Counted from the stretch's first letter, positions 6,751 through 59,480 are shown. The stretch is 64,000 nt of DNA from Candidatus Spongiihabitans sp. (GCA_965261335.1 OZ253450.1:2519492-2583491); one strand, 5' to 3'. The notes: a model not told the origin generated them from the letters alone. Program-made: numbers and translations.

Positions 6751-9700
6751 TTACCTGCTCAAAGATTGATATAAAAAATCAAATAGTGTTTCAATTTTTT
6801 CAATTCGGGTTATCGGTTCGCTCAGATCATCGGCTATTTTGAACGCATTTGCACCACACAGTTTGTAGATGTGAGGATGCGCTTGAATCAGAGAAAATAT
6901 CACGCTGGGATCGATGGCGGGTTCATCATGGAATTCAATTACGCCGCCATGCTCATCAATATCGACTTTGTGTATATCTAATTGCTCGGCTTGTAGGCGC
7001 AATGCCGTTAGTCGAAAGAGATTTTTCCCCTGTTCGGGTAACAGTCCAAACCGATCGATGGTTTCGATTTGTAGCTCGTTCAGTTGCTCAATATTGGTGG
7101 CATTGGAGATTCGTTTGTATAAAATCAGTCGAGTATGTGCATTGTCCAGATAATCCTGTGAGAATAGAGCAGTAACATGCAAGTCGATAATAGATGCTTT
7201 TTCAATCTGTTCGGCAGTATTCGGCTCAGGTAAGCGCCCGTCCTTGATGGCGGTTACCGCAAGGTTCAAATATTCGCTATACAGCGAAAAACCAACCTCA
7301 TCAATCGACCCGCTTTGCGTTTCGCCAAGTAATTCTCCAGCACCGCGAATTTCTAAATCATGCGATGCGAGCGTGAATCCAGCACCTAGATTATCCATAG
7401 AATCAATAGCATCAAGCCGCTTCTTAGCATCATTGGTAATATATTGTTTGTCCGCTATCAATAGATAGGCAAAGGCTTGATGTTGTGAGCGACCTACACG
7501 TCCCCTGAGTTGGTGTAATTGTGCCAGACCGAAACGATCTGCACGATTGATAATAATCGTATTTGCGGTCGGAATATCGATGCCGCTTTCGATAATGGTC
7601 GAGCAAATTAGGATATTAAAACGGCGATGATAGAAATCCTGCATGACACGTTCAAGCTGTAATTCGTGCATTTGCCCGTGGCAAATATCAATCTTGGCTT
7701 CTGGCAATAATTCGGCAATTTCAACTGCCATACGGTCGATTGATTTGACCTCATTATGGAGGAAGAAAACCTGTCCGCCACGTCTTATTTCGCGTAAACA
7801 GGCTTCCCGAATTAACCCCCGACTCCACTGACGAATAAAGGTCTTTATCGACAAGCGGTTGAGTGGCGGGGTGGCAATAATGGAGATTGACCTTAATCCT
7901 GACATCGTGATGTTCAGCGTACGCGGAATAGGGGTTGCTGTCAAAGTTAAAATATCAACCTGACTGCGAATGCGTTTAATATGCTCTTTCTGGCGCACAC
8001 CGAAGCGGTGTTCTTCATCAATAATCAGTAATCCTAAATCGTGAAAGCGAATGTCGGCTTGCAATAATCGATGCGTGCCAATGATAATGTCAATCTGTCC
8101 GCTGGCGACACGGGTAATCAATTCGTTCGCTTGCTTTCGGGTGTTAAATCGTGACAGCACTTCAATATTGATAGCCCAGTCTGAAAAACGCTCTACAAAG
8201 ACCTGATGATGTTGCTGTGCTAACAGCGTAGTCGGGGTTAAAATGGCTACTTGTTTACCATTATTTGAGACAATGAACGCAGCTCTTAATGCGACTTCAG
8301 TTTTGCCGAATCCAACATCGCCACAAACCAATCTGTCCATCGGCTCGGGAGAACCGAGATCGGCGAGCACTTCGCGAATAGCCTGTTGCTGATCGGGTGT
8401 TTCATCGAATGGAAATAGGCTATTAAAACGCTGGTTTTCCAGCGCGTTAATTTCAAAAGCATGTCCTTTGCGTGCTGTTCTGGACGCTTCCATCTCTAGT
8501 AGTTCAGCCGCGACATCATAGGCTTTTTCCCGTGCACGGTTTTTTGATTTTTCCCATTGATCGCCACCAAGCCGATGCAGCGGTGCTGATTCAGGAGAGC
8601 CACCGACAAAACGGCTGATGAGATTCAATGCCAAAACAGGAATATACAGTTTGTCACCGTTTTGATATTCAAGGGTCAGAAAGTCACCTGTTTCGTCGCT
8701 GATGGTCAGCGTATGTAAGCCTTTATATCGACCTACGCCATGCTCAATATGCACCACCGGATCGCCAATATTCAGCTCTGCCAACGATTTGATAATAGAT
8801 TCTGGATCGCGCGATTCTTTGCTACGTCGACGCCGTTGATAAACTTTGTCGCCGTATAACTGGCTCTCGCAAATTATTTCGATGCCATGCGTATTCGAAG
8901 TCAACCCACGTTCAAGGGCTGCAATGGCGAGTCCCAAAGTGGCTTGCTTGTCGGCGATGAAGTCGTGCAATCCTTGAAATGAGGAGGGACGTAGATTATT
9001 CCTGAATAGCACGTCCCCTAAGGCTTCTTTGCGTCCAGGGGTTTCGGTAACAATTAAAATTCGCCGACTACTGTTGTGCAAATGGGTCAGCAATTCCTGA
9101 TACGGTGTTTCATTTCTGGGGTCAACCGGAAATTGTTGGTTGTAATTCGTATCAGCGCACCACGATGCGGCGGCGTTATGGTCGCGAATGATGTCAATAC
9201 CCGAACATTTTTCGCAGCTTTCCATGAACTCATCTGCCGCCATATAGAGTTGATAGGGTGGTATGACTTTACGCTCCGAATCATAATTGGCATTGCTGTG
9301 TCGAGCATTGACTTCGGCCCAATAGGCTGTAGCGGCTTTTTTGAAATCAGGTGTTTTGACGATAATCGAATCACCCTGAATATAATCGAACAACGTGGCA
9401 GTATGGTCAAAGAATAGTGGGAAGAAAAATTCGGTTCCGGTCGGCGTGTGTCCGATAGAGACTTCTTTGTAAATCGTCTGTTTCATCGGATCGCCCTCAA
9501 AACAACGGCGAAATGATGATCGAAAATGCTTGATACCGCTTTCGGTCATCGGAAATTCCCGTGCTGGCAATAGCTCGACCTTTGCGACATGTTCTTTTGA
9601 TCTTTGACTGTCCGGGTCGAAAACTCGAATGCTTTCCAGCTCATTATCAAATAAATCGAGACGAAAAGGGATGTGTGACCCCATCGGAAATACATCAATC

Positions 9701-10248
9701 AATCCGCCACGCACGGCAAATTCCCCGGGTGACACGACCTGATTGACGGCAGTATAATTTGAATTGACGAGCTGTTGTTTTAAGTGATCGAGGTTAATCT
9801 GCTGTGATTCTTGTAACGAGAAAGTATGCCCGAGTACATAATTGAGTGGCGGAAGGCGTTGCATCAAATTAGTTGTTTGAATCAACACAATGCCGTTTCG
9901 CAGGGACGGCAATTTCCCTAAAACTCGAAGTCGTTCCGATATGATGTTCTGATGAGGAGAAAATATATCGTATGGCAGGCATTCCCAGCTTGGAAAATTG
10001 AATATCGGAATATCTTTCGTTGGTTGCAGGAAATATCGAATTTCGTTTTCTAAAATCTGAAGCTGATGCTGATCTTCAAGTACAATAACCAAAATGCCAT
10101 GGTATTGACGTGCGGCTTCGGCTATTGCCAAACCCAGAGCCGCACCGTGCAGATTTGACCAAATGATATGTTGCCCCCGTGCAGGTAGTGGTGGATTGAG
10201 TAGCCGATGGGGCTTGGACGGGAGGGAATCGGGTTTGGACATACGCAA
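6751..10248 (-). CDS. mfd: Transcription-repair coupling factor Mfd
   Basis: 1165 aa. UvrB-homology N-terminus, CarD-like RID (GDPVVHIEHGVGRY), superfamily-2 helicase motifs (GDVGFGKTEVA, DEEHRFG), TRG and C-terminal domains. Confidence 0.95.
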   Translation of the reverse strand: MRMSKPDSLPSKPHRLLNPPLPARGQHIIWSNLHGAALGLAIAEAARQYHGILVIVLEDQHQLQILENEIRYFLQPTKDIPIFNFPSWECLPYDIFSPHQNIISERLRVLGKLPSLRNGIVLIQTTNLMQRLPPLNYVLGHTFSLQESQQINLDHLKQQLVNSNYTAVNQVVSPGEFAVRGGLIDVFPMGSHIPFRLDLFDNELESIRVFDPDSQRSKEHVAKVELLPAREFPMTESGIKHFRSSFRRCFEGDPMKQTIYKEVSIGHTPTGTEFFFPLFFDHTATLFDYIQGDSIIVKTPDFKKAATAYWAEVNARHSNANYDSERKVIPPYQLYMAADEFMESCEKCSGIDIIRDHNAAASWCADTNYNQQFPVDPRNETPYQELLTHLHNSSRRILIVTETPGRKEALGDVLFRNNLRPSSFQGLHDFIADKQATLGLAIAALERGLTSNTHGIEIICESQLYGDKVYQRRRRSKESRDPESIIKSLAELNIGDPVVHIEHGVGRYKGLHTLTISDETGDFLTLEYQNGDKLYIPVLALNLISRFVGGSPESAPLHRLGGDQWEKSKNRAREKAYDVAAELLEMEASRTARKGHAFEINALENQRFNSLFPFDETPDQQQAIREVLADLGSPEPMDRLVCGDVGFGKTEVALRAAFIVSNNGKQVAILTPTTLLAQQHHQVFVERFSDWAINIEVLSRFNTRKQANELITRVASGQIDIIIGTHRLLQADIRFHDLGLLIIDEEHRFGVRQKEHIKRIRSQVDILTLTATPIPRTLNITMSGLRSISIIATPPLNRLSIKTFIRQWSRGLIREACLREIRRGGQVFFLHNEVKSIDRMAVEIAELLPEAKIDICHGQMHELQLERVMQDFYHRRFNILICSTIIESGIDIPTANTIIINRADRFGLAQLHQLRGRVGRSQHQAFAYLLIADKQYITNDAKKRLDAIDSMDNLGAGFTLASHDLEIRGAGELLGETQSGSIDEVGFSLYSEYLNLAVTAIKDGRLPEPNTAEQIEKASIIDLHVTALFSQDYLDNAHTRLILYKRISNATNIEQLNELQIETIDRFGLLPEQGKNLFRLTALRLQAEQLDIHKVDIDEHGGVIEFHDEPAIDPSVIFSLIQAHPHIYKLCGANAFKIADDLSEPITRIEKIETLFDFLYQSLSR

Positions 10249-12195: not shown

Positions 12196-13844
<1,649 letters not shown>

Positions 13845-13848
<4 letters not shown>

Positions 13849-16964: not shown

Positions 16965-17210
16965 ATGACATCATCAAAAACACCAAAACCATTGGTACAA
17001 AAAATGGATATTGTTACCAAGGGTGGGTTTACAGAAGAATTACTCGGCATATGCGATGCCATTGAAGCTGCACTCATGCACATGGGAGCGGTTCCGGGTG
17101 AGGACTATTCATCTGCTGATCTGGTAAAAATGGCAGAGCCGTATGTTCTAAGTCTTTTTAATAGTTTGCCCGGCGGGTTGATTTACTATTTACCCGGACG
17201 AGAGGAATAA
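16965..17210 (+). CDS. Hypothetical protein
   Basis: ORF only, start chosen at MTSSKTPKP. No recognisable motif. Lies inside the duplicated segment. Confidence 0.3.
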   Translation: MTSSKTPKPLVQKMDIVTKGGFTEELLGICDAIEAALMHMGAVPGEDYSSADLVKMAEPYVLSLFNSLPGGLIYYLPGREE

Positions 17211-17512
17211 TCTGCACGTTTTCTGCGCTGTTGTGCTACGGCAGCCGTCGCCGTCATACGCTTGCGTCTCAAAACCTCAGGGCTATCAATTAAAAAGGTT
17301 TCCCCCGTTTGACTAACCGTAACGTATTGCTTACCTTCGGGTGCTTTTCTCCTCGTTGGCTCGGGGTGACCTGCACGTTTTCTGCGCTGTTGTGCTACGG
17401 CAGCCATCGCCGTCATACGCTTGCGTCTCAAAACCTCATGGTTGTCAATTAAAAAGGTTTCCCCCGTTTGACTAACCGTAACGTATTGCTTACCTTCGGG
17501 TGCTTTCATCAT
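17186..17512 (-). CDS. Hypothetical basic protein made of two fused 53-aa repeats
   Basis: A 159-bp tandem duplication (17212-17370 / 17371-17529) encodes APEGKQYVTVSQTGETFLID..EVLRRKRMTA.AAVAQQRRKRA twice. Confidence 0.5.
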   Translation of the reverse strand: MMKAPEGKQYVTVSQTGETFLIDNHEVLRRKRMTAMAAVAQQRRKRAGHPEPTRRKAPEGKQYVTVSQTGETFLIDSPEVLRRKRMTATAAVAQQRRKRADYSSRPGK

Positions 17513-18459: not shown

Positions 18460-18545
18460 ACCGAACACTTTATCGGTATGAATACCGAAAGTCAAGTATT
18501 TATTTCTCTAAATGTAGCGGGATTAAATTCGGTATAATTGCCGAA
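18448..18545. promoter_or_regulatory. Divergent promoter/operator region with three 18-bp palindromic operator-like sites
   Basis: TTCGGTATTCATACCGAA (18448-18465), ATCGGTATGAATACCGAA (18472-18489), TTCGGTATAATTGCCGAA (18528-18545). TATAAT is at 18533-18538. Leftward TTGACT-17 nt-TAAAGT spans 18495-18467. Confidence 0.65.
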
Positions 18546-19486
18546 TGAATAACGATCAATTGATAGAAATTATCCGCACAGAATTAAATAATCGCGGGAC
18601 AAACGCATACAGGGTTGCCAAAAGCACGGGGTTGCCAGATGATGCAATACGTTATGTGCTTAAAGGTAGAGACCCTAAATTCAGCAGGCTGGTAGAGATA
18701 TGCCACGCTTTAAATCTTGAGTTCTACATTGGTCCCTTGCGAGACGGCAAAAATCTGAATCAATCCCAACTTAAATCAGATAAATCTGTCCACAATGACT
18801 GGGGCGAGCAGATTACCAGCGCATTGAAACTACCCAAAGATGCCACTCTGGACGATGTTCTCACCGTTATTGAAACACTGCTACATCCCCAACCTAACGA
18901 TGTTCGGTGGGCAACCTTGGAGGCGGAAATAACAGCCTTGCGTGCCGACATCAAACTGTTGAGCGTGCGTAAAGAGGATACCGATGCGGGCAATCAAATC
19001 GCCGAGTACCCCGCCCACTACACCGTGTCTGCGGACGACCTGACGAATCAGGCGGCTTTGTCCGCCGAAGCACGGTCGGCGCGGCAGGTGGCGACCATTG
19101 AGTTTGAGGCGGCTGCAGGTGGCGGGGCATATAACCTGAACGAAGCACCCGTCAAGGGACAAGTCTGGTTTCGGCGCGACTGGTTAGACCGCAAAGGCAT
19201 TGATGCCACTCAGTGCAATGTGATCAGCGTGCATGGCGAATCGATGGAGCCAACCCTACCAGACGGCTCCAAAATCCTAGTCGTACGGCACCGTTGCCGC
19301 CGTCGTGTTGGCGGCATATTCGTCCTCAATACCGCAGACGGCTTAATCGTTAAGCGTTTGGACAAAGATACCGCGGGGCATTGGCAATTGGTGAGCGATA
19401 ACCCCGCCCCAGATTGGTCTGCACTACCTTGGCCAAACCATGCAGAAATCATCGGTGAGGTGATGTGGGTGGCACGGAGTTTGTAG
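18545..19486 (+). CDS. CI/LexA-like repressor (XRE HTH + long linker + S24 peptidase)
   Basis: N-terminal HTH (NAYRVAKSTGLPDDAIRYVLKG). C-terminal GESMEPTLPDGS (Ser) and IVKRL (Lys) autocleavage dyad. Confidence 0.85.
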   Translation: MNNDQLIEIIRTELNNRGTNAYRVAKSTGLPDDAIRYVLKGRDPKFSRLVEICHALNLEFYIGPLRDGKNLNQSQLKSDKSVHNDWGEQITSALKLPKDATLDDVLTVIETLLHPQPNDVRWATLEAEITALRADIKLLSVRKEDTDAGNQIAEYPAHYTVSADDLTNQAALSAEARSARQVATIEFEAAAGGGAYNLNEAPVKGQVWFRRDWLDRKGIDATQCNVISVHGESMEPTLPDGSKILVVRHRCRRRVGGIFVLNTADGLIVKRLDKDTAGHWQLVSDNPAPDWSALPWPNHAEIIGEVMWVARSL

Positions 19487-19807
19487 TGAGTGAGTATAAT
19501 TGGGTTGTTTGGGTGCTTATGGTAGCGGGATTAGTTTGGTGGATATTTGTTGATTGGTGCAATAGGTGCCCACGCATAGCAATCCACTGCACAACCCATC
19601 AGCCCCCTAATTCGAGAGATTCATATCCATCGACAAAGATGGTTAAAGTTTCTGCTACAAATATTGGATTAATACCCGTTTCAATATTTACCGTATTTAG
19701 CAAGTTCTCTCCTTAAGGAATAAAGTGAATTGTTATATTGATATTTTTCGTGAAGTTAATGATAATCTCCGCATATATATCGCTATGAACTTAAAACTAA
19801 AATCGCT

Positions 19808-20473
19808 ATGATTCTATCAGACAAGGACATTCGCGATGCTGTGGCGACTGAGCATGGTGGTATCTGCATTGAGCCTTTTTCCGAGCAATTGGTACAACCT
19901 GCCTCTTATGATTTGCGTGTAGGGAACCAAGCCGCCACCACTTCAAACAAGAAGGTGACGGATTTAGTAAAGGAGGGGTTCGTCGAAATCAAGCCTGGCG
20001 ATTTCGTTATTGTTATTACTTACGAGAGACTTACCTTGAGTGCGCGACATGTTGGTCGCTTCGGGTTGACCAGTACCTATGCACGAAAAGGGTTAATCGC
20101 CACGGTTGGACCACAAATTGACCCGGGTTTTCGTGGGCGGCTGACGGTGGGACTGACCAACCTTTCAACAAAACCTATTGCCTTGCCATACAAGGATGTT
20201 TTTCTGACTGTTGAGCTTCACAGCCTTGAGCAGGCGGTAGATACTCCGTATGCCGGTCCTTATCAGGAGCGAGACGAGTTGTCACCAGAAGACATTCGCA
20301 TCGTGATGGAACGTGAGTACATGTCTCAGACAGAGATGATGCGTACACTGGAGACATTAGTAGCGTCGGTGGATAGCTTGAAACAGAGTATCAGTTGGCG
20401 ACTTCCATTGACTTTAGGATCCATAGTTGCCATTGGCATAGCAGTTGGCTCTTTATTGGTCAAATTTTCGTAG
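19808..20473 (+). CDS. dCTP deaminase/dUTPase-fold protein with a C-terminal coiled-coil and transmembrane helix
   Basis: MILSDKDIRDAV...VQPASYDLRVG...IDPGFRGRLTVGLTN aligns with Dcd, but the catalytic Glu position (E. coli VLEF) reads TVGL. The tail LPLTLGSIVAIGIAVGSLLVKFS is hydrophobic. Confidence 0.7.
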   Translation: MILSDKDIRDAVATEHGGICIEPFSEQLVQPASYDLRVGNQAATTSNKKVTDLVKEGFVEIKPGDFVIVITYERLTLSARHVGRFGLTSTYARKGLIATVGPQIDPGFRGRLTVGLTNLSTKPIALPYKDVFLTVELHSLEQAVDTPYAGPYQERDELSPEDIRIVMEREYMSQTEMMRTLETLVASVDSLKQSISWRLPLTLGSIVAIGIAVGSLLVKFS

Positions 20474-20623
20474 GCTTCCGACACAACCTCCACAACGGCA
20501 ACTTCGGTATCCGTTTTTGTTTTCCCACGCAAGCTGGACTTCAACCTTGCCGTTTGGCAGTCGTTTTTCGATGCTATCAATCACACCACCACAAAACGGA
20601 CACTAAGGAATAGAAACCGTCCG

Positions 20624-21625
20624 CTATATGTCGAGACCGTTGTCTGTATCCGGTCCACGCTTCCACTCCTCTTTACCCGGTTCTTTGTAGGTGCAGTCGC
20701 CGTTGGAATGGGCGTAATATCTGGCAGATTTGAGTGTTTTTTCTGTCGCTAGAACCGTTCCTTGAAGGGAAATTGTTGCCCGCACAGAAAGGTGGTTGGC
20801 AAACGGACGCAAATCGCCCGCATCGGCTTTTTCAAGTGTAGCAATGTACAGGGGTTTTTCATCCGCCTTAATCACCGGCGGAAACTCCCCGCGCCGGATG
20901 TAGGCATACGCCATCAGCAAACGCGCAGTGCGTCCATTGCCGTCCTGAAACGGGTGAATTTGGATGTAGCGATGATGTAACCACGCGGCTACGACTTCGG
21001 TGGCATAGTTTTTCTCATGTATTTTGCCGTACATATCAAGCAATCTATCGAGTTCAGAACGCACCTGTTCCGGTGGGCAATACTGATGAACAATGCCATC
21101 CGGTCGGCGCGGGTTGTTGGGACGTAACTTGTATTCGCCTTTAAGCAGGGGGATGCCGACACGCTTTCCTTCCAGCGTTCTACCTGCGGCAGTGGCTTGA
21201 TGGCGGGTAAGCAGTTGATGCCATTCCTTGAATGCCGTATGCGATAACGGTCGACGTTGCGCAACCGTATCAAACACCATTTCCAATGCGGTTTTCTGAT
21301 CTTGTAGCAACCCTGTCAAGCTGCCGTCTTCAACCTCGGGTGCTGCCATGTTATGCGATAGCCGAACACTTTCCAGCCCCTCGGTGATGAGCTGCTCGGT
21401 GATGCCTCGGGGAATCACATACAGCCCCTCAACCTGTCCAGTCTCAATAGCAAACCGTCTTTGACGCTCTTCCGACCAGATGTCAATAATATTCTTATCC
21501 AACTTCGTGCTTTCAAGCTGCGGTCGCAGTTCCTTCCATTCGGACAAAATTCTTTGATATGTCGGGTCTTGCCATTTATCCGCACCTGCCGGCATATCTT
21601 CGATAGGTGACCATTGTTCTCTCAT
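20624..21625 (-). CDS. Fic-domain protein with an internal inhibitory helix (class II-like)
   Basis: Fic motif HPFQDGNGRTAR. N-terminal TGQVEG fits the (S/T)xxxE(G/N) inhibition motif. Confidence 0.85.
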   Translation of the reverse strand: MREQWSPIEDMPAGADKWQDPTYQRILSEWKELRPQLESTKLDKNIIDIWSEERQRRFAIETGQVEGLYVIPRGITEQLITEGLESVRLSHNMAAPEVEDGSLTGLLQDQKTALEMVFDTVAQRRPLSHTAFKEWHQLLTRHQATAAGRTLEGKRVGIPLLKGEYKLRPNNPRRPDGIVHQYCPPEQVRSELDRLLDMYGKIHEKNYATEVVAAWLHHRYIQIHPFQDGNGRTARLLMAYAYIRRGEFPPVIKADEKPLYIATLEKADAGDLRPFANHLSVRATISLQGTVLATEKTLKSARYYAHSNGDCTYKEPGKEEWKRGPDTDNGLDI

Positions 21626-21687
21626 TGGTTGATCCTCTGAATTAAATTAGAATTAAGATTGATAACAAGGATATTACGCTATTTTGT

Positions 21688-21751
21688 GATGTTTTGGCAA
21701 AAACCACGTCCTTATTTGTCGTATTTCGGACGATCTCATGTCAACCCCTTG
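21688..21751. repeat. 64-bp direct repeat, copy 1 (downstream of ficT)
   Basis: Matches 22776-22839 with 3 mismatches. Contains two small hairpins (GTTTTG/CAAAAAC; CGTCC..GGACG). Confidence 0.9.
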
Positions 21752-21754
21752 GTG

Positions 21755-22456
21755 CTAATCGAAATCAAATTCAAGCGATTTTTCAACGACTTTGACTTTA
21801 TCCTGGCGATTGTAGGGTTTTTGAGTATTGGCAAAATCGTTTCGTTCAAGTATGTCATTATGTACTACGCCAGTTGGAGATTTTCCTATGCTATTCTGGA
21901 CAATAGAGTTGAGTACCTCTACCATTAGTTTATCATTGCCATAATGACCTTGAATTGATGCCCCAAGCCAAGCATCTCGACCAACATCATTATAGTTTAT
22001 TTGGTATCCGTGCTGGTTTGCGACAGCAACCATGAATGCACGAAGTGTCCGGCCGTTGCCCTCTCTAAATGGGTGAATAGCATTTAGTTCATTTATAAAA
22101 TGGGCGGATTGATGGACAAAATCTTTTTTGCCTAGACCCTTATTCCACATCCATTCCTGTATTTGATTAAGAATTTTGTTTAGATAGCGGTCGATATAAT
22201 TGTGCGAAGCAAACAAAGAGCCGCCTTTTGTAAGATTTACTTGTCTGGTTTCACCAGCCCATGAATAAACTTTTCCAAAAAGGTGTTTGTGTACTATCTT
22301 AAAGTGGTTAGCCGAAAAATCACCTGTTGGGATTCCAGCCGAATTTGCAAACAGAACGCAACGGCTTTCATATAGATGAAATTTGCGCGCATCGGTTATG
22401 CAAGGAATGTTTTTGAGGATGTTTGTGCCCGGGTAAACATACGGGTCTTTTGACAT
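21755..22456 (-). CDS. Fic toxin (class I, FicT/VbhT-like)
   Basis: HPFREGNGRTLR Fic motif. DPYVYPGTNILKN N-terminus is typical of short Fic toxins. No internal inhibitory motif was seen. Confidence 0.85.
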   Translation of the reverse strand: MSKDPYVYPGTNILKNIPCITDARKFHLYESRCVLFANSAGIPTGDFSANHFKIVHKHLFGKVYSWAGETRQVNLTKGGSLFASHNYIDRYLNKILNQIQEWMWNKGLGKKDFVHQSAHFINELNAIHPFREGNGRTLRAFMVAVANQHGYQINYNDVGRDAWLGASIQGHYGNDKLMVEVLNSIVQNSIGKSPTGVVHNDILERNDFANTQKPYNRQDKVKVVEKSLEFDFD

Positions 22457-22644
22457 TACCGCTCCAAGAGGGTTTCGCTTGTGTTTTGTTTGTTGGCTTC
22501 TATCATAGCTTGTTTTTCTGTCAGCAACCCATCCTTCACTTTTTGAGCCAGAGCAAGCTCTTTTCTTGTGTAAAACACATTTTCTATTGCGGCGGAACCG
22601 GCAATAGATATAATTTCATCACTAATTTTGTTCGTGATTGGCAT
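22456..22644 (-). CDS. VbhA/FicA-like antitoxin
   Basis: Start chosen at MPITNKISDE. SAAIEN fits the (S/T)xxxE(G/N) inhibitory motif. Its stop overlaps the ficT start. Confidence 0.7.
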   Translation of the reverse strand: MPITNKISDEIISIAGSAAIENVFYTRKELALAQKVKDGLLTEKQAMIEANKQNTSETLLER

Positions 22645-22775
22645 ATTATAGCTATCCCTTTGGCTGGTATTGGTTGTTACCGTGGGTGTCTGCTCCCCTA
22701 GATTCAATTCACGCACCCCGTGCGTGGCACGACTACAACTAATTTAATATCAATAGTCATTTCGCCATTATACCG

Positions 22776-22839
22776 GATGTTTTGTCAAAAACCACGTCCT
22801 TATTTGCCGTATTTCGGACGATCTCACGTCAACCCCTTG
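22776..22839. repeat. 64-bp direct repeat, copy 2 (upstream of ficA, downstream of pilU)
   Basis: See 21688-21751. Confidence 0.9.
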
Positions 22840-22854
22840 CTGGGTATTACCCGG

Positions 22855-51986: not shown

Positions 51987-53008
51987 ATAGAGCGGTCAAC
52001 GTATTTAATCAATGGATACGTTTCCCCAAAGAAGCGCGTGCGATGTTTTATGAAGTCATGGAAGCGCAATTGGAGGCTGGTTTGCCCTTAAAGAAAGTGT
52101 TTGAAGTTTTACATCGTGATTTGAACGTATCGCCTGAAATAACGCGGGTGTCTGCTGCTGGCTATCAAGCGATCAGTCAAGGTCGGTTAGGCACTGAGGG
52201 ACTCGCTGATTGTAACTTGCTGCCGGTGGATGAGGCTTATTTGCTCATTGCGGCGGAAAAAAAAGATGTCTTGATTCAAGTTTTGCGCCAACTGCGTGAG
52301 CGCGCAGAAGCGGATGCTACGTTCTGCCAAGATGTCATTGTAGCGAATTTGTATTATATCGTCTTGGTGTCGCTACTGGGTTACATGGCACTTAAAACCA
52401 AGGATCTCGCAACCGCTTTCGGTAATTTTGTTTCATTGGATGACAATCCAGCCTATCAATTAAGTCTAACACTCAATGAGTATGGGACTCCGGTCGCGTT
52501 TAGTGTCGTTATCATTAGCATCTTCGTTTGGTTTTGTGCCAATCATTGGTATCACCCATTGCGCCGTTATGTGTGGTTTTTTTCAACGGATATACAGCTG
52601 CAAATTGGTGTTAAATTTAGTGCGTTATCGAGTGCTTTTTATTCAATTGGCGCAACACACAGTGATGTGTTGCAAGCGGCGACAGCCGTTTTTCATGGCT
52701 CGGGCTTTATGCGCGGTGCGCTTGCAGATTTGATTGCTCGGTATGAGTCTGAAGGTGATTCGTATAATGAGGCGTTAGGTGACACCGTGTTGCATCCGGA
52801 CATTGCGATGGCAATTATGGCAATGACACCGGCGGAGGATCGGGCGGCTTTTTCTCGCGCACATGTTGCTGCCGAAAAGTTGCAAATCAGTTTGATTAAA
52901 CAACGCCACGGCAAAGCAAAATTGTTAGTGCAATTGGTATTGCTGGGGGCAATTAGTTATATGCTTCTGACGATGTTGATTGGTTTATATAGTGAGACTT
53001 TTGCATAA
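51974..53008 (+). CDS. pilR: PilR-type (GspF/PilC family) platform protein; last 4 codons supplied by IS5 copy B
   Basis: Two GspF-like repeats with TM helices. The IS end begins at 52994, so the tail ETFA is IS-encoded. The native tail IYNF-stop is readable after the IS at 54276. Confidence 0.8.
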   Translation: MGSLNRAVNVFNQWIRFPKEARAMFYEVMEAQLEAGLPLKKVFEVLHRDLNVSPEITRVSAAGYQAISQGRLGTEGLADCNLLPVDEAYLLIAAEKKDVLIQVLRQLRERAEADATFCQDVIVANLYYIVLVSLLGYMALKTKDLATAFGNFVSLDDNPAYQLSLTLNEYGTPVAFSVVIISIFVWFCANHWYHPLRRYVWFFSTDIQLQIGVKFSALSSAFYSIGATHSDVLQAATAVFHGSGFMRGALADLIARYESEGDSYNEALGDTVLHPDIAMAIMAMTPAEDRAAFSRAHVAAEKLQISLIKQRHGKAKLLVQLVLLGAISYMLLTMLIGLYSETFA

Positions 53009-54270
53009 TCCACAAAACACCCCTCGCAACTCACAAACAACGTGATTTTTTATAAATTTGCCTCATTTTTTCGCCCATGTTCTCTCAATCATCAATACGA
53101 CACCAAAAAAGCCTCTATTTCGGCACTTTTAACCACTTTTAGTGGGTTTTTATCTGTTTTATTGCCCATTTAGGCACAACTCTCCTTTAAACGTTGCAGT
53201 TCTTTGAAAATATTCATCCCAGTTTTAAGGTTATGGCTCATGGCAATCAGATGTGCGCGGGGTTTGTTTCTGGCTAACCCCATGTATCTTGCCTTGCCTA
53301 ATCCGTGATGCAGTTTGAGCAAACCAAAGGTGCGTTCAACCACATAGCGGACACTGCTATACATTTTATTCAGTGCTTTTTGTTGCTCCGTTAATGGTGT
53401 GTTGCGATAAGCTCGGTGCAGGATTCTATTGTCTGCTTTACCCAGTTTCTCGTCATTGTTGGCACTTGTGCCCTGTGGGTATAGGCACTGTCTGCGTAAA
53501 CTTGTCCGTGCCTATCGCCTAACAGATGTTCAAACTCCCCAAAATCATGCAATGAATCATGCACATTGCCAGGCGTAGTGGTCATTTTCTTGATAACCAT
53601 CTTCATCGGTATTGGCGTGCAACTTAAATCCGTAGGTACTTTTACGCCTGCCATCGGATGCCGTTTTCACGTTCCATGCCGCTTCTGGGTCTTGGGTATT
53701 GTCGCCTTGTTTGTTCTTTTTAGAACGGCATTGCTTCGCCTCAATCACAGTCGCATCGATAATATTGACCGAGCCTGTGGCAACAATAAGACTGTTTTTA
53801 GCGAGATGGTTATTGATCTGCACCAATAAAGAATCAAGCAGATTTTCGGTGTGTAATAAGTTCCTAAACCGCCAAATAGTGGAATGATCGGGTACTGCAT
53901 CACTGAGACTCAAACCAATAAACCGGCGGAACATTAAATCCCGGGCTATCTGTTCTTCTAAGGCTTCATCGCTTAAGTTATACCACGCCTGTAAAATCAG
54001 TATCTTAAACATCATCAAAGGTGGGTATGCTGGCACACCGCGCTTGCTGGCATAAAGATGGCTGAGCGTTTTTTCGATCTGTTTCCAATCGATAATTTCA
54101 TGCACATCATCTAGTTTGGACAATGACTTATGCTCAATTAAAAGGGCATCTGCGAACGAGTATTGGGCGGTTTGTTTCCAAGACATTTGACGGTATCCTC
54201 AAGGGTTTATTGAATGAACGCTATTTTACCATTTTAAGTGGGGCCCTGGGTGGATTTATGCAAAGGTCTC
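52994..54270 (-). mobile_element. IS5-family IS, copy B (transposase frameshifted), simple insertion with a 5-bp flanking direct repeat ATAGT
   Basis: Same inverted repeats as copy A. ATAGT at 52989-52993 and 54271-54275. ORF fragments at 53557-54186, 53391-53654 and 53170-53364. 17-nt insert at 53464-53480. Confidence 0.88.
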
Positions 54271-57058: not shown

Positions 57059-58167
57059 GTGCAACACTCGGGTTTATATTATGATCTATTCCTATTGCGT
57101 GGGAAAAGACCTCCCAAGGGGTTTTATACCCCAAACATTTTCTAGGTCGGTTGTTCATTAAATCGGTCGCTTTGAACCGCTCTTTTTCGGTGACTTTATG
57201 CAAAGGCATTTTCTTTGGAAAAAACTGCCTGAACAAAAAGTATGAGCAAGCCATTGTGCCAGATGATTATTTGGCATTCAAGCCACGCTCCCAAGAGTGA
57301 TACGGTTTAGCAAAATAAGTTTCACACTCGAGTTGTTTAGCAAGCTCACTATGCCAACAAAATTCTCTGCCGTTATCAAAGGTTAGGGTCATTACATGTT
57401 GTTTCATATGCTTTAACAACCTGAGTATAGCCGCGTTGGTTTCTTTTGCGGTTTTGTTCTTAGTCCGAAGTGCGAGATAAAGCCTACTTTTGCGTTCAGC
57501 AAGGGTGGCAAACACCCCTTGACGACCCTTACGGATAACACAATCAGCCTCCCCCCTCTATCACTACGCCTATACGCGAGCGACTGTCCACCATGCGGGG
57601 TCTATCAGCAATATCAACCCGATTGGGGATGCGTCCGCGGTAATCGTTCTGTCCATAACGCTTGCGATATTTCTTACCCTGATGGCGCAAGTATCGATAT
57701 AACGACCCATCCGCTACTTTGTCTTTCAAAATGAGACGATAGATGGATTCGGTGCTAATACTGATGTTTTCCTCCATTTTCAAACGACCGCTAATTTGTT
57801 CATGACTCCAATACAGTGCAAGCTTTTGTTGAATATGAAGCTTTAACTCGTCATTGAGCTTGATGTGCTTGGGCTTTTGCTGATGCCTCGTTTGGGCAAA
57901 GCGGTGGGCTTGTTTGTAGCGATAGCCGTTGCCCCCGGTATTGCGTTTAATTTCACTGCTGATGGTTGACTTAACTTCTGCCCATGGTTTTAGCGATTTC
58001 TGTCAGTGTACAGTTTTGCTGATTCATGAGGTAAATGTGGTATCTTTCGTGTTCAGTCAAATGGGTATATCTCGTCATGTTTTACTCCTTTTTTCCGTTC
58101 AGTTAAAAGAGTACGAGTGTACCCTTTGACTGACTTAGGAGTGTTGCACTTATTATGTGAATTCAAG
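57044..58167 (-). mobile_element. IS30-family IS, copy 2 (transposase degraded into at least 4 fragments)
   Basis: Inverted repeats GAATTCAATCCATAAGTGCAACAC / GAATTCACATAATAAGTGCAACAC. ORF fragments at 57544-57783, 57267-57515 and 57048-57254. Indels relative to copy 1. Confidence 0.85.
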
Positions 58168-58207: not shown

Positions 58208-59397
58208 GAGACTTTTGCATAATCCACAAAACACCCCTCGCAACTCACAAACAACGCGATTTTTTATAAATTTGCCTCATTTTTTCGCCCATGTTCTCTC
58301 AATCATCAATACGACACCAAAAATGCCGCTATTTCGGCACTTTTAACCACTTTTAGTGGGTTTTTATCTGTTTTATTGCCCATTTAGGCACAACTCTCCT
58401 TTAAACGTTGCAGTTCTTTGAAAATATTCATTCCAGTTTTAAGGTTATGGCTCATGGCAATCAGATGTACACGGGTTTTGTTTCTGGCTAACCCCATGTA
58501 TCTTGCCTTGCCTAATCCGTGATGCAGTTTGAGCAAACCAAAGGTGCGTTCAACCACATAGCGGACACTGCTATACATTTTATTCAGTGCTTTTTGTTGC
58601 TCCGTTAATGGTGTGTTGCGATAAGCTCGGTGCAGGATTCTATTGTTTTCTTTACCCAGTTTCTGGTCATTGTCTTTGTTGGCACTTGTGCCCTTTGGGT
58701 ATAGGCACTGTCTGCGTAAACTTGTCCGTGCCTATCGCCTAACAGATGTTCAAACTCCCCAAAATCATGCAATGAATCATGCACATTACCATGCGTATAG
58801 GTCATTTTCTTGATAACCATCTTCATCGGTATTGGCGTGCAGCTTAAATCCGTAGGTACTTTTACGCCTGCCATCGGATGCCGTTTTCACGTTCCATGCC
58901 GCTTCCGGTCTTGGGTATTGTGCCTTGTTTGTTCTTTTTAGAACGGCATTGCTTCGCCTCAATCACAGTCGCATCGATAATATTGACCGAGCCTGTGGCA
59001 ACAATAAGACTGTTTTTAGCGAGATGGTTATTGATCTGCATCAATAAAGAATCAAGCAGATTTTCGGTGTGTAATAAGTTCCTAAACCGCCAAATAGTGG
59101 AATGATCGGGTACTGCATCACTGAGACTCAAACCAATAAACCGGCGGAACATTAAATCCCGGGCTATCTGTTCTTCATAAGGCTTCATCGCTTAAGTTAT
59201 ACCGTGCCTGTAAAATCAGTATCTTAAACATCATCAAAGGTGGGCATACCCAAAGGACACAAGTGCTGGCACACCGCGCTTGGAGGCATAAAGATGGCTG
59301 AGCGTTTTTTCGATCTGTTTCCAATCGATAATTTCATGCACATCATCTAGTTTGGACAATGACTTATGCTCAATTAAAAGGGCATCTGCGAACGAGT
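58208..59397 (-). mobile_element. IS5-family IS, copy C (5'-truncated, transposase disrupted)
   Basis: The right inverted repeat is present at 58208. Similarity to copy B stops at about 59397. 17-nt inserts at 58684-58700 and 59248-59264. Confidence 0.85.
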
Positions 59398-59480
59398 ACC
59401 CAAATCCCCAGATAGAGTGGCGCTAGTGCTTCAAGAGCCTGTGAATCCCTCTTTCAAGTCTTATGGCTGGAAATTACAGC

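What the first reader, a model, noticed from the sequence alone, without database searches (positions are those of the whole stretch)
19808..20473. Membrane-anchored dCTP-deaminase-fold protein lacking the catalytic glutamate
The first ~150 aa align well with Dcd (MILSDKDIR..., VQPASYDLRVG, IDPGFRGRL). Several catalytic positions differ from E. coli Dcd:
- The catalytic Glu position (E. coli ...IVLEFYN, E138) reads LTVGLTN, i.e. Gly.
- The GRSS segment reads GLTS.

After the fold comes a ~60-aa extension with a heptad-like segment and a terminal TM helix (LPLTLGSIVAIGIAVGSLLVKFS), which housekeeping Dcd and dUTPase lack.

It sits in ICE cargo next to two Fic proteins and the CI-like switch. 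Nucleotide-depleting Dcd-like enzymes are known anti-phage effectors. This variant looks like a nucleotide binder or pyrophosphatase tethered to the membrane rather than a deaminase.
Basis: partly seen in the sequence, partly recalled or inferred. Interest (0 to 1): 0.62.

Follow-up and report, generated by a model that had tools for sequence, protein, structure and literature searches.

The report
Membrane-anchored dUTPase-fold protein, not deaminase
This gene, which databases would label "dCTP deaminase", encodes a membrane-tethered nucleotide-binding protein that lacks the deaminase catalytic residue. It belongs to a widespread, mobile family that I could not find described anywhere and whose function has not been tested.

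Summary
ORF 19808-20473 (+) encodes 221 aa. Residues 1-160 form a Dcd/dUTPase beta-barrel; a heptad helix and a C-terminal TM helix follow.

**What the head resembles.** The closest solved structures are the archaeal monofunctional dUTPases P45 and T. pacificus (38% identity, TM 0.92), not Dcd.

**Residues lost.**
- The Dcd catalytic Glu is Gly115. It is Gly in 113 of 114 close homologues and almost never Glu in 113 more distant representatives.
- The dUTPase motif IV Arg/Gln is also missing.

**Residues kept or gained.**
- Ser89, Arg93, Asp105, Asn118 and the lid Y148-x-G-x-Y-Q153 are kept.
- Glu136 and His138 are invariant and specific to the family.

**The family.**
- It comprises 754 proteins and 327 genomic loci in many phyla.
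- dN/dS is 0.07-0.24.
- It has no conserved partner gene and moves as a single gene.
- It sits by transposases, restriction genes and conjugation genes, and inside phages.

**Local context.** In the window it is ICE cargo just downstream of a CI-like repressor. The CI and Fic neighbours are not conserved partners.

**Reading.** It is not a known defence family: PADLOC gives no hit. It is best read as a deaminase-dead, membrane-tethered trimer that binds pyrimidine dNTPs and probably hydrolyses them, with a likely role in conflicts between mobile elements. That function is inferred, not shown.

The parts
19738..19766 (+). Promoter-like site TTGATA-17-GATAAT, 42 nt upstream of the ATG
   Evidence: It matches 10 of 12 consensus positions, but such sites are no more frequent here than in shuffled sequence, so this is only suggestive.
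19808..20473 (+). The gene: a 221-aa tail-anchored protein with a Dcd/dUTPase fold
19808..20287 (+). Cytoplasmic head, aa 1-160: a beta-barrel of the Dcd-type dUTPase fold
   Evidence: pLDDT is above 90. Foldseek top hits are 9ln3/9ln0 (P45 dUTPase) and 8y1w (T. pacificus dUTPase), with TM 0.91-0.92 normalised to the target and 36-38% identity.
20150..20152 (+). Codon GGA = Gly115, at the position of the Dcd catalytic Glu138
   Evidence: Alignments. Gly in 113 of 114 close homologues.
20213..20221 (+). Glu136-Leu137-His138: family-specific invariant Glu and His on the motif IV strand
   Evidence: 114 of 114 close homologues have Glu136 and His138. Glu136 is present in 90 of 113 distant representatives. 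Dut, P45, SIRV dUTPase and Dcd all have hydrophobic residues here.
20249..20266 (+). Lid motif Y148-A-G-P-Y-Q153, equivalent to the C-terminal arm of Dcd-type enzymes
   Evidence: P45 has YRGNYQ and SIRV dUTPase has YNGKYQ at the same place. Invariant or nearly so in the family.
20324..20401 (+). Stalk, aa 173-198: heptad-patterned helix, strongly conserved (T180, L181, L184, V188, L191)
   Evidence: The distance from lid to TM helix is constrained, with a mode of 48 residues.
20402..20461 (+). C-terminal transmembrane helix, aa 199-218, followed by only 3 residues
   Evidence: Kyte-Doolittle 2.07. Present in 108 of 114 close homologues.
20547..20570 (+). Terminator-like hairpin with a T run, 74 nt after the stop codon
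   Evidence: suggestive only.
18545..19486 (+). Context: CI/LexA-like S24 repressor, same strand, 321 nt upstream. Not a conserved partner.
   Evidence: The segment 19047-20546 is 100% identical to a sister genome while its flanks are 79-93% identical.
20624..21625 (-). Context: Fic-domain protein, convergent with the gene. Not a conserved partner.

Best explanation
**What it is.** The gene encodes a tail-anchored inner-membrane protein. Its cytoplasmic head is a Dcd-type dUTPase beta-barrel. By homology, the head forms a trimer with three nucleotide pockets at the subunit interfaces. It is not a dCTP deaminase, because the catalytic Glu is an invariant Gly.

**How it most likely works.** I infer that the head still binds a pyrimidine deoxynucleoside triphosphate. 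It keeps Ser89, Arg93, Asp105, Asn118 and the closing lid Y148-x-G-x-Y-Q153. Most likely it cleaves the nucleotide to the monophosphate using a rebuilt pocket. In that pocket, Glu136 and His138 would take over from the lost dUTPase motif IV Arg/Gln. They would act from the neighbouring subunit, because they lie on the motif IV strand.

The lid runs straight into a conserved coiled-coil stalk and a single C-terminal TM helix. This fixes the nucleotide site to the membrane and probably couples the two.

**Its place in the genome.** The gene is autonomous and under purifying selection. It has no partner gene and moves horizontally on ICEs, IS-rich islands and temperate phages. Here it lies just downstream of the ICE's CI-like repressor. 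Its biological role is most likely in conflicts between mobile elements and phages, by removing or monitoring a pyrimidine dNTP at the membrane.

**Shown versus inferred.**
- Shown: the fold, the residue pattern, the architecture, the distribution and the mobility.
- Inferred: trimer formation, ligand, chemistry and role.
For: **Fold and residues.**
- The fold and nearest relatives are true dUTPases.
- Gly115 aligns with Glu138 of E. coli Dcd.
- Gly115 is invariant and the binding residues and lid are kept.
- Glu136 and His138 are invariant where every characterised enzyme has a hydrophobic residue.

**Architecture.**
- The long C-terminal helix and TM helix are predicted.
- 108 of 114 close homologues carry the TM segment.
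- Stalk length is constrained.

**Selection and mobility.**
- dN/dS is 0.07-0.24.
- No conserved neighbour appears among 80 loci.
- In two congeneric genomes, homology is confined to the ORF plus about 45 bp.

**Genomic company.**
- IS1595, IS1, IS66 and rve transposases
- Type IIG restriction-modification plus TraG
- SNF2, AIPR and Eco57I genes
- A dnd cluster
- A KAP NTPase
- Genuine phage contigs

**Window context.** The gene lies in an ICE.
Against: - No biochemical or genetic data exist for any member of the family.
- The dUTPase motif IV Arg/Gln is lost. In the window protein the motif II Arg is also Thr88 and position 131 is Val, so two phosphate-binding charges are missing. Hydrolysis may therefore be absent.
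- Trimer formation and the position of Glu136/His138 could not be checked. No multimer prediction was available and no model coordinates are returned.
- The association with defence genes is anecdotal. Many immediate neighbours are housekeeping genes, and PADLOC gives no hit.
- Expression is not shown. No RNA run holds the gene.
- I could not test whether the host genome has a canonical dut or dcd, because the genome search was shut.
Confidence: 0.55

Rival explanations
1. Pure sensor coupled to a membrane effector. The head no longer catalyses anything. It binds a pyrimidine nucleotide, for example one that rises or appears during phage or plasmid entry. Lid closure is transmitted through the stalk to the three TM helices, which perturb the membrane and cause abortive infection or exclusion.
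For: - The signature residues of both known chemistries are lost: Glu138 of Dcd, the motif IV Arg/Gln, and here also the motif II Arg.
- The stalk is conserved in sequence, not just in length.
- The same Glu-less head occurs with other outputs: an N-terminal Cro/CI HTH, a weak C-terminal winged HTH, and tandem heads with a TM helix.
- The gene lies directly downstream of a CI-like repressor, as rexAB lies downstream of cI in lambda (the lambda comparison is from my own knowledge).
- It is carried in accessory regions of temperate phages.
Against: - A three-helix bundle with one TM helix per subunit makes a poor pore.
- An invariant Glu/His/Gln/Asp set looks like a catalytic site.
- The nearest relatives, at 38% identity, are enzymes.
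- No toxicity or defence data exist.
Confidence: 0.25
2. Ordinary dUTPase that happens to be membrane-anchored. It keeps dUTP low for replication of the ICE, the phage or the host, with no role in conflict.
For: - The closest structures are monofunctional dUTPases.
- Position 115 is small, as in classical Dut, which has Ser there.
- Phages and mobile elements commonly carry dUTPases.
Against: - Motif IV is lost.
- The family has specific invariant residues and a conserved stalk and TM helix, which sanitation of the nucleotide pool would not need.
- The distribution is rare and patchy: 327 loci among 185,579 species genomes.
Confidence: 0.1
3. It is still a dCTP deaminase. The invariant Glu136 on the neighbouring strand functionally replaces the lost Glu.
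For: - Glu136 is the most universal marker of the clade (90 of 113 representatives).
- TIGR02274 scores above its cutoff.
Against: - By homology, Glu136 lies on the motif IV strand, which lines the adjacent subunit's phosphate side rather than the base pocket (PMC12524310).
- All characterised enzymes have a hydrophobic residue at that position.
- The closest relatives are Glu-less dUTPases.
Confidence: 0.05
4. It is a component of the local CI-Fic module, for example a dUTPase-like modulator of the ICE repressor in the way staphylococcal Dut proteins relieve Stl repression.
For: - It has the same orientation as the S24 repressor and lies 321 nt downstream.
- The 1.5-kb segment covering the S24 C-terminus and this gene is 100% identical in a sister genome.
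Against: - S24 and Fic neighbours recur only in that sister genome, where the S24 gene is frameshifted. Among 80 other loci, one has a Fic gene and one phage contig has an S24 gene.
- A membrane anchor is not expected for a partner of a repressor.
Confidence: 0.05

Closest known systems
Archaeal Dcd-type monofunctional dUTPases (Pyrococcus furiosus P45, PDB 9ln0/9ln3; Thermococcus pacificus, 8y1w; SIRV1 dUTPase)
   Same: - Same compact beta-barrel, without the Dcd insertion.
- 36-40% identity and TM 0.92.
- No catalytic Glu in P45 and T. pacificus, which have Met there.
- Shared RS..AR segment, DPG motif, Asn118 and Y-x-G-x-Y-Q lid.
   Different: - These enzymes are soluble, about 155 aa, with motif IV GERF(V/L)(Q/H).
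- The window family has (K/x)D(x)F(L/V)(T/S) there, plus invariant Glu136/His138, Gln103 and Thr99.
- The window family also has a 60-aa stalk and TM helix.
dCTP deaminase Dcd (E. coli, PDB 1xs1; TIGR02274) and bifunctional Dcd-Dut (M. tuberculosis 2qlp/2qxx, M. jannaschii 1ogh)
   Same: - Same superfamily; Pfam PF22769.
- The Ser111/Arg115 equivalents and Asp128 equivalent are kept.
- Like Dcd, it lacks the dUTPase motif IV Arg/Gln.
   Different: - Catalytic Glu138 is Gly.
- His121 is Thr.
- The insertion of about 25 residues is absent.
- It is membrane-anchored.
- Identity is only 24-29%.
Anti-phage dCTP deaminase (Tal et al. 2022; PADLOC/DefenseFinder 'dCTPdeaminase')
   Same: Only the idea of acting on the pyrimidine dNTP pool from a stand-alone mobile gene.
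   Different: - No PADLOC hit.
- From my own knowledge, those proteins use a zinc cytidine/dCMP-deaminase fold with a kinase-like N-terminal domain, which is unrelated to the Dcd/dUTPase barrel.
Lambda RexAB-type exclusion genes expressed with the prophage repressor
   Same: It lies directly downstream of, and on the same strand as, a CI-like repressor in an integrated mobile element, and its product is a membrane protein.
   Different: There is no sequence or fold relationship. This is an analogy of position only, and it holds in this window but not across the family.

Membership tests
dCTP deaminase (Dcd, EC 3.5.4.13; TIGR02274) | Dcd/dUTPase beta-barrel fold and an HMM match | tested here: met
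   PF22769 at 1e-23. TIGR02274 at 107 bits, above the 92.8-bit cutoff. Foldseek match to 1xs1 and 2qxx.
dCTP deaminase (Dcd, EC 3.5.4.13; TIGR02274) | Catalytic Glu (E. coli Glu138) that activates the deaminating water | tested here: not met
   Gly115 aligns with Glu138. Gly in 113 of 114 close homologues.
dCTP deaminase (Dcd, EC 3.5.4.13; TIGR02274) | Ser111 and Arg115 of the GRSSxxR segment | tested here: met
   Ser89 and Arg93 are invariant. The preceding Arg110 equivalent is Thr88 in the window protein.
dCTP deaminase (Dcd, EC 3.5.4.13; TIGR02274) | Deamination of dCTP | not testable with these tools
   Needs an enzyme assay.
Trimeric dUTPase, Dcd-type (P45-like) | Closest fold and sequence relative | tested here: met
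   9ln0 at E 1e-24. TM 0.92 and 38% identity.
Trimeric dUTPase, Dcd-type (P45-like) | Motif III Asp (general base, DPG) and motif II Ser | tested here: met
   Asp105 and Ser89 are invariant.
Trimeric dUTPase, Dcd-type (P45-like) | Motif IV Arg and Gln (GERxxQ) | tested here: not met
   Dut has GERIAQ, P45 GERFVQ and SIRV GERFLH. The window protein has KDVFLT, and the family has T or S at the Gln position.
Trimeric dUTPase, Dcd-type (P45-like) | C-terminal closing arm (Y-x-G-x-Y-Q in Dcd-type enzymes) | tested here: met
   Y148, G150, Y152 and Q153 are conserved.
Trimeric dUTPase, Dcd-type (P45-like) | Homotrimer and hydrolysis of dUTP | not testable with these tools
   Only a monomer model could be made, and no assay is possible.
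Known anti-phage defence families (PADLOC-DB v2) | Match to a defence-protein HMM | tested here: not met
   0 families at E up to 1.
   The C-terminal 77-102 aa of four members gave no relevant Pfam hit at E up to 10.
ICE cargo gene | Lies between the integration and regulation genes and the conjugation genes of an integrated element | tested here: met
   - tRNA-Met plus serine recombinase at 12.2-13.8 kb
- Toprim protein and S24 repressor upstream
- A24 peptidase, TrbB/VirB11, ParA, relaxase and TraG downstream

The most novel reading that the evidence does not exclude
The family is a new kind of single-gene immune or exclusion protein. A trimeric dUTPase-fold head has lost both ancestral chemistries and reads the pyrimidine dNTP pool, or a phage-made modified dNTP, at its three inter-subunit pockets. 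Lid closure is passed down a coiled-coil stalk to a three-helix membrane bundle. In logic this resembles a nucleotide-gated trimeric channel. The membrane is then permeabilised, or incoming DNA is excluded.
Probability: 0.2. Interest if true: 0.85.

Novelty: new variant of a known kind. Interest (0 to 1): 0.55.

Why it matters
**Annotation.** Hundreds of proteins are, or would be, auto-annotated 'dCTP deaminase' because TIGR02274 scores above its cutoff, yet they cannot perform that reaction.

**Biology.** The family shows that the dUTPase/Dcd barrel has been re-used, with a rebuilt pocket, as a membrane-tethered module. The module spreads alone between phyla on ICEs, IS elements and phages.

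If it hydrolyses or senses a pyrimidine dNTP at the membrane, it would add a new architecture to nucleotide-based conflict systems. It would be a compact single-gene case that is easy to test in E. coli.

The soluble relatives with HTH or other C-terminal domains suggest that the Glu-less head is a general ligand-binding module.

Tried and rejected
- **Host dut/dcd.** I tried to search the window's whole genome for a canonical dut or dcd, but the genome search was shut.
- **Plasmids.** No match to the 4-kb region in the plasmid collection.
- **Cultured phages.** None holds a full-length member. The only hits were archaeal-virus dUTPases covering the head.
- **Fic look-up.** The window's Fic protein is not on record in the contig index.
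- **Conserved partner.** Rejected. All-against-all clustering of ORFs in 80 loci gave no neighbour family in more than 9 loci, and the top ones are ABC ATPases and transposases.
- **Thymidylate-synthase or hydroxymethylase partner** (suggested by earlier notes for other subfamilies). No ThyA-like hit in any locus or in the window. A ThyX motif scan was too noisy to use.
- **S24 or Fic as partners.** Rejected.
- **XhlA-like C-terminus.** No Pfam support.
- **Expression.** No RNA run holds the gene.
- **Viral structure library.** Only generic Dcd/Dut hits.
- **Literature.**
  - Searches for membrane-anchored or TM dUTPase/Dcd proteins in defence found no description.
  - DefensePredictor (PMC13092281) only lists 'a dUTPase' among unvalidated predicted defence domains.
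  - The 2015 paper it cites is not held.
- **Stalk length in heptad steps.** The distribution peaks at 48, 52-53 and 55-57 residues. This is too imprecise to support the idea.

Full report
**1. Observation**

The ORF listing gives one ORF at exactly 19808-20473 (+), 221 aa, starting MILSDKDIR (sequence).

Domain matches:
- Pfam DCD PF22769, 1e-23, residues 2-126.
- NCBIfam TIGR02274 'dCTP deaminase', 107.2 bits against a cutoff of 92.8. Annotation pipelines therefore name it dCTP deaminase, and public names for homologues do say so.
- PHROGs phrog_1663 'dCTP deaminase'.
- PADLOC: nothing at E up to 1.

**2. Fold and nearest relatives**

By sequence, the best solved structures are 9ln0/9ln3 and 8y1w (E 1e-24 and 8.5e-23). 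The M. tuberculosis Dcd-Dut and E. coli Dcd follow far behind.

An AlphaFold2 model built on a 22-sequence family alignment has:
- mean pLDDT 85;
- pLDDT above 90 over residues 1-160;
- a helix at 160-168, a low-confidence hinge at 171-176, and one long helix at 173-220.

Foldseek against the PDB ranks these first:
- 9ln3 and 9ln0, 'thermostable dUTPase P45';
- 8y1w, 'Thermococcus pacificus dUTPase with dUMP'.

These have TM 0.91-0.92 normalised to the target, rmsd 1.4-1.7 A and 36-38% identity. Bifunctional Dcd-Dut and Dcd come next.

In the phage collection, only the heads of archaeal-virus dUTPases match, and no cultured phage has a full-length member. The head is therefore a compact Dcd-type dUTPase barrel, not a typical bacterial Dcd.

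**3. Residues**

I aligned the protein with E. coli Dcd and Dut taken from NC_000913.3, the SIRV1 dUTPase, P45, T. pacificus dUTPase and M. tuberculosis Dcd-Dut.

| Position or motif | Reference enzymes | Window protein / family |
|---|---|---|
| Dcd Glu138 (IVLEFYN) | M. tuberculosis Glu; P45 Met; E. coli Dut Ser; SIRV Glu | Gly115 (LTVGLTN) |
| Dcd Ser111 | conserved | Ser89 |
| Dcd Arg115 | conserved | Arg93 |
| Dcd Asp128 | conserved | Asp105 |
| Dcd Asn141 | conserved | Asn118 |
| Dcd Arg110 (GRSS) | Arg | Thr88; Arg in 59 of 114 close homologues |
| Lid | P45 YRGNYQ; SIRV YNGKYQ | Y148-A-G-P-Y-Q153 |
| dUTPase motif IV | Dut GERIAQ; P45 GERFVQ; SIRV GERFLH | KDVFLT; family (x)D(x)F(L/V)(T/S), so Arg and Gln are lost, as in monofunctional Dcd (PGMLIG) |
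| 136 and 138 | hydrophobic in every characterised enzyme | Glu136 and His138 |

Frequencies among 114 full-length close homologues:
- Gly115 in 113.
- Glu136, His138, Gln103, Asp105 and Asn118 in all 114.
- Thr99 in 108.

Frequencies among 113 full-length representatives of 50%-identity clusters:
- Position 115 is Gly 41, Ser 22, Thr 20, Asn 8, Ala 5, Pro 5, and Glu almost never.
- Glu136 is present in 90.

Positions 88 and 131 co-vary in the close set:
- basic 88 with acidic 131 in 58;
- non-basic 88 with non-acidic 131 in 51, of which 12 have a basic residue at 131.

This suggests the two positions are neighbours, although two clades carry most of the signal. The window protein has neither charge.

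[quoted passage not shown] Glu136 and His138 lie two and four residues after the motif IV Gln position on the same strand face. I therefore infer that they face the neighbouring subunit's nucleotide or the interface. This could not be checked, because model coordinates are not returned and no multimer prediction is offered.

**4. Stalk and anchor**

- Residues 174-198 show 3-4 spacing of hydrophobic residues.
- Residues 199-218 (LPLTLGSIVAIGIAVGSLLV) are the most hydrophobic stretch, and only three residues follow.
- There is no N-terminal signal peptide, so the head is cytoplasmic and the protein is tail-anchored.
- 108 of 114 close homologues and 76 of 113 representatives have such a C-terminal TM segment.
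- Stalk residues E168, E170, M172, E176, T180, L181, L184, V188 and L191 are at least 90% conserved.
- The distance from lid to TM helix has a sharp mode at 48 residues.
- The C-terminal part hits no Pfam family, XhlA included.
- Relatives without a TM helix carry other additions: an N-terminal Cro/CI HTH, a weak C-terminal winged HTH, unannotated C-terminal extensions, or two heads in tandem followed by a TM helix.

**5. Family, selection and mobility**

Size and spread:
- 754 proteins at E up to 1e-3 in the 90% clusters, nearly all 214-232 aa with full coverage.
- 64 clusters at 50% identity below E 1e-30.
- 327 loci in the collection of 185,579 species genomes. Almost all are MAGs from Pseudomonadota, Acidobacteriota, Verrucomicrobiota, Planctomycetota, Nitrospirota, Thermodesulfobacteriota and others.

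The window organism is a Candidatus Poriferihabitaceae sponge symbiont.

The tree places the window copy in a clade shared by several families of sponge-associated Gammaproteobacteria. It nests two Thermodesulfobacteriota copies inside another gammaproteobacterial clade (support 100/98). Overall it needs 17 phylum changes where 10 is the minimum.

dN/dS is 0.07-0.24 for unsaturated pairs.

No neighbour family recurs in more than 9 of 80 loci. Immediate neighbours are heterogeneous. The most recurrent specific neighbours are IS1595 transposases (7 loci), IS1-like transposases (5 loci) and AbiEi.

Two Foliamicus genomes share only the ORF plus about 45 bp, in otherwise unrelated surroundings. 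In another pair the shared block is the ORF plus about 235 bp upstream, and an IS sits right after the gene in one of two otherwise identical contigs.

Pfam-annotated contexts include:
- a dnd cluster with Fic and S24 genes;
- SNF2, AIPR and Eco57I genes;
- MarR and an IS;
- a Type IIG restriction-modification enzyme with TraG and DtrJ;
- TnsA-like, KAP NTPase and DUF4411/M78 genes;
- three transposases;
- one plainly housekeeping setting.

Ten of 2.9 million viral contigs carry a relative. These contigs have terminase, portal, tail-fibre, integrase or Mu-type transposase genes, and the gene sits in accessory positions.

**6. Local context**

The window holds an integrated conjugative element beside mfd. 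In order, it contains:
- tRNA-Met, 12196-12272;
- large serine recombinase, 12229-13848;
- Toprim protein;
- small ORFs;
- S24 CI-like repressor, 18545-19486;
- this gene;
- Fic, 20624-21625;
- a second Fic with an 86-aa ORF;
- A24 peptidase;
- TrbB/VirB11;
- Dcm;
- ParA;
- relaxase;
- TraG.

A promoter-like site (19738-19766) and a terminator-like hairpin (20547-20560) flank the ORF, but such sites are not enriched over shuffled sequence.

A second Poriferihabitaceae genome has the identical protein between a hydantoinase gene and a dnd cluster. The two genomes share window 18750-21747. Identity is 100% over 19497-20396 and at least 99% over most of 19047-20546, but only 79-93% in the flanks. 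This indicates a recent exchange of the segment covering the S24 C-terminus and this gene.

S24 and Fic are not family-wide partners.

**7. Interpretation**

The protein is not a Dcd-type deaminase. It keeps the parts of the fold that hold a pyrimidine deoxynucleotide and close over it. It has lost the motif IV pair seen in the dUTPases compared here, and it has gained an invariant Glu/His pair.

I commit to a membrane-tethered trimer that binds a pyrimidine dNTP and most likely still cleaves it with a rebuilt site. It acts as an autonomous accessory function of mobile elements.

The main rival is a non-catalytic sensor that acts on the membrane. A surviving deaminase, a plain housekeeping dUTPase, and a CI-Fic module component are less likely.

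Earlier notes of this scan describe the same and sister families in other genomes, some with ThyX, hydroxymethylase or phosphatase partners. For this subfamily I found no such partner. Those notes, if right, make hydrolytic activity in the wider group somewhat more plausible.

**8. Novelty**

Nothing in the searchable literature describes a membrane-anchored Dcd/dUTPase-fold family. DefensePredictor mentions a dUTPase domain only among unvalidated predictions.

I rate this a new variant of a known kind: a known fold with a new architecture and probably a new role. Interest is moderate, because no function has been shown.

Noticed in passing
window 21688-21754 and 22776-22842: Two 67-nt direct repeats (94% identical) bracket a 1,088-bp cassette. 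The cassette holds the second Fic gene (21755-22456) and an 86-aa ORF (22456-22716). The sister genome (L001) has a single repeat copy and no cassette, so this looks like a discrete insertion or deletion unit.
   Followed up: partly
window 19047-20546 vs L001 9240-10739: A 1.5-kb segment covering the S24 peptidase domain, the intergenic region and the Dcd-fold gene is 99-100% identical between two genomes. The flanking Fic gene and the S24 N-terminus are only 79-93% identical. In L001 the S24 gene is frameshifted or truncated.
   Followed up: partly
window 12196-12272 (+) and 12229-13848 (-): A tRNA-Met gene overlaps the 3' end of a large serine recombinase gene. This is probably the integration end of the ICE, next to chromosomal mfd at 6751-10248.
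   Followed up: no
window 52994-54162 / 58208-59398, and 34-633 / 57567-58167: A 1.2-1.4-kb duplication lies 5.2 kb apart (97-100% identical). A repeat of about 600 nt lies 57.5 kb apart (96-97% identical). What they are is not known.
   Followed up: no
window 17212-17347 / 17371-17506: A tandem 136-nt repeat (97% identical) lies inside ORF 17186-17512 (-). It gives an internally duplicated 108-aa protein with no Pfam match.
   Followed up: no
P0225, P0156, P0198, P0231, P0163 (relatives): Soluble or differently built relatives of the Glu-less head exist:
- Cro/CI HTH followed by the head
- head followed by a weak winged HTH
- two heads in tandem followed by a TM helix
- forms of about 330 aa with Asn at position 115 and an unannotated C-terminal domain

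   Followed up: partly
L007 and L008 (OZ243038.1), L036 and L056 (CBDCDS010000003.1): Two genomes each carry two copies of the family. In the first, both copies lie in a multi-kb duplicated, repeat-rich region next to an rve integrase. In the second, the two copies are divergent and their contexts are unrelated.
   Followed up: partly
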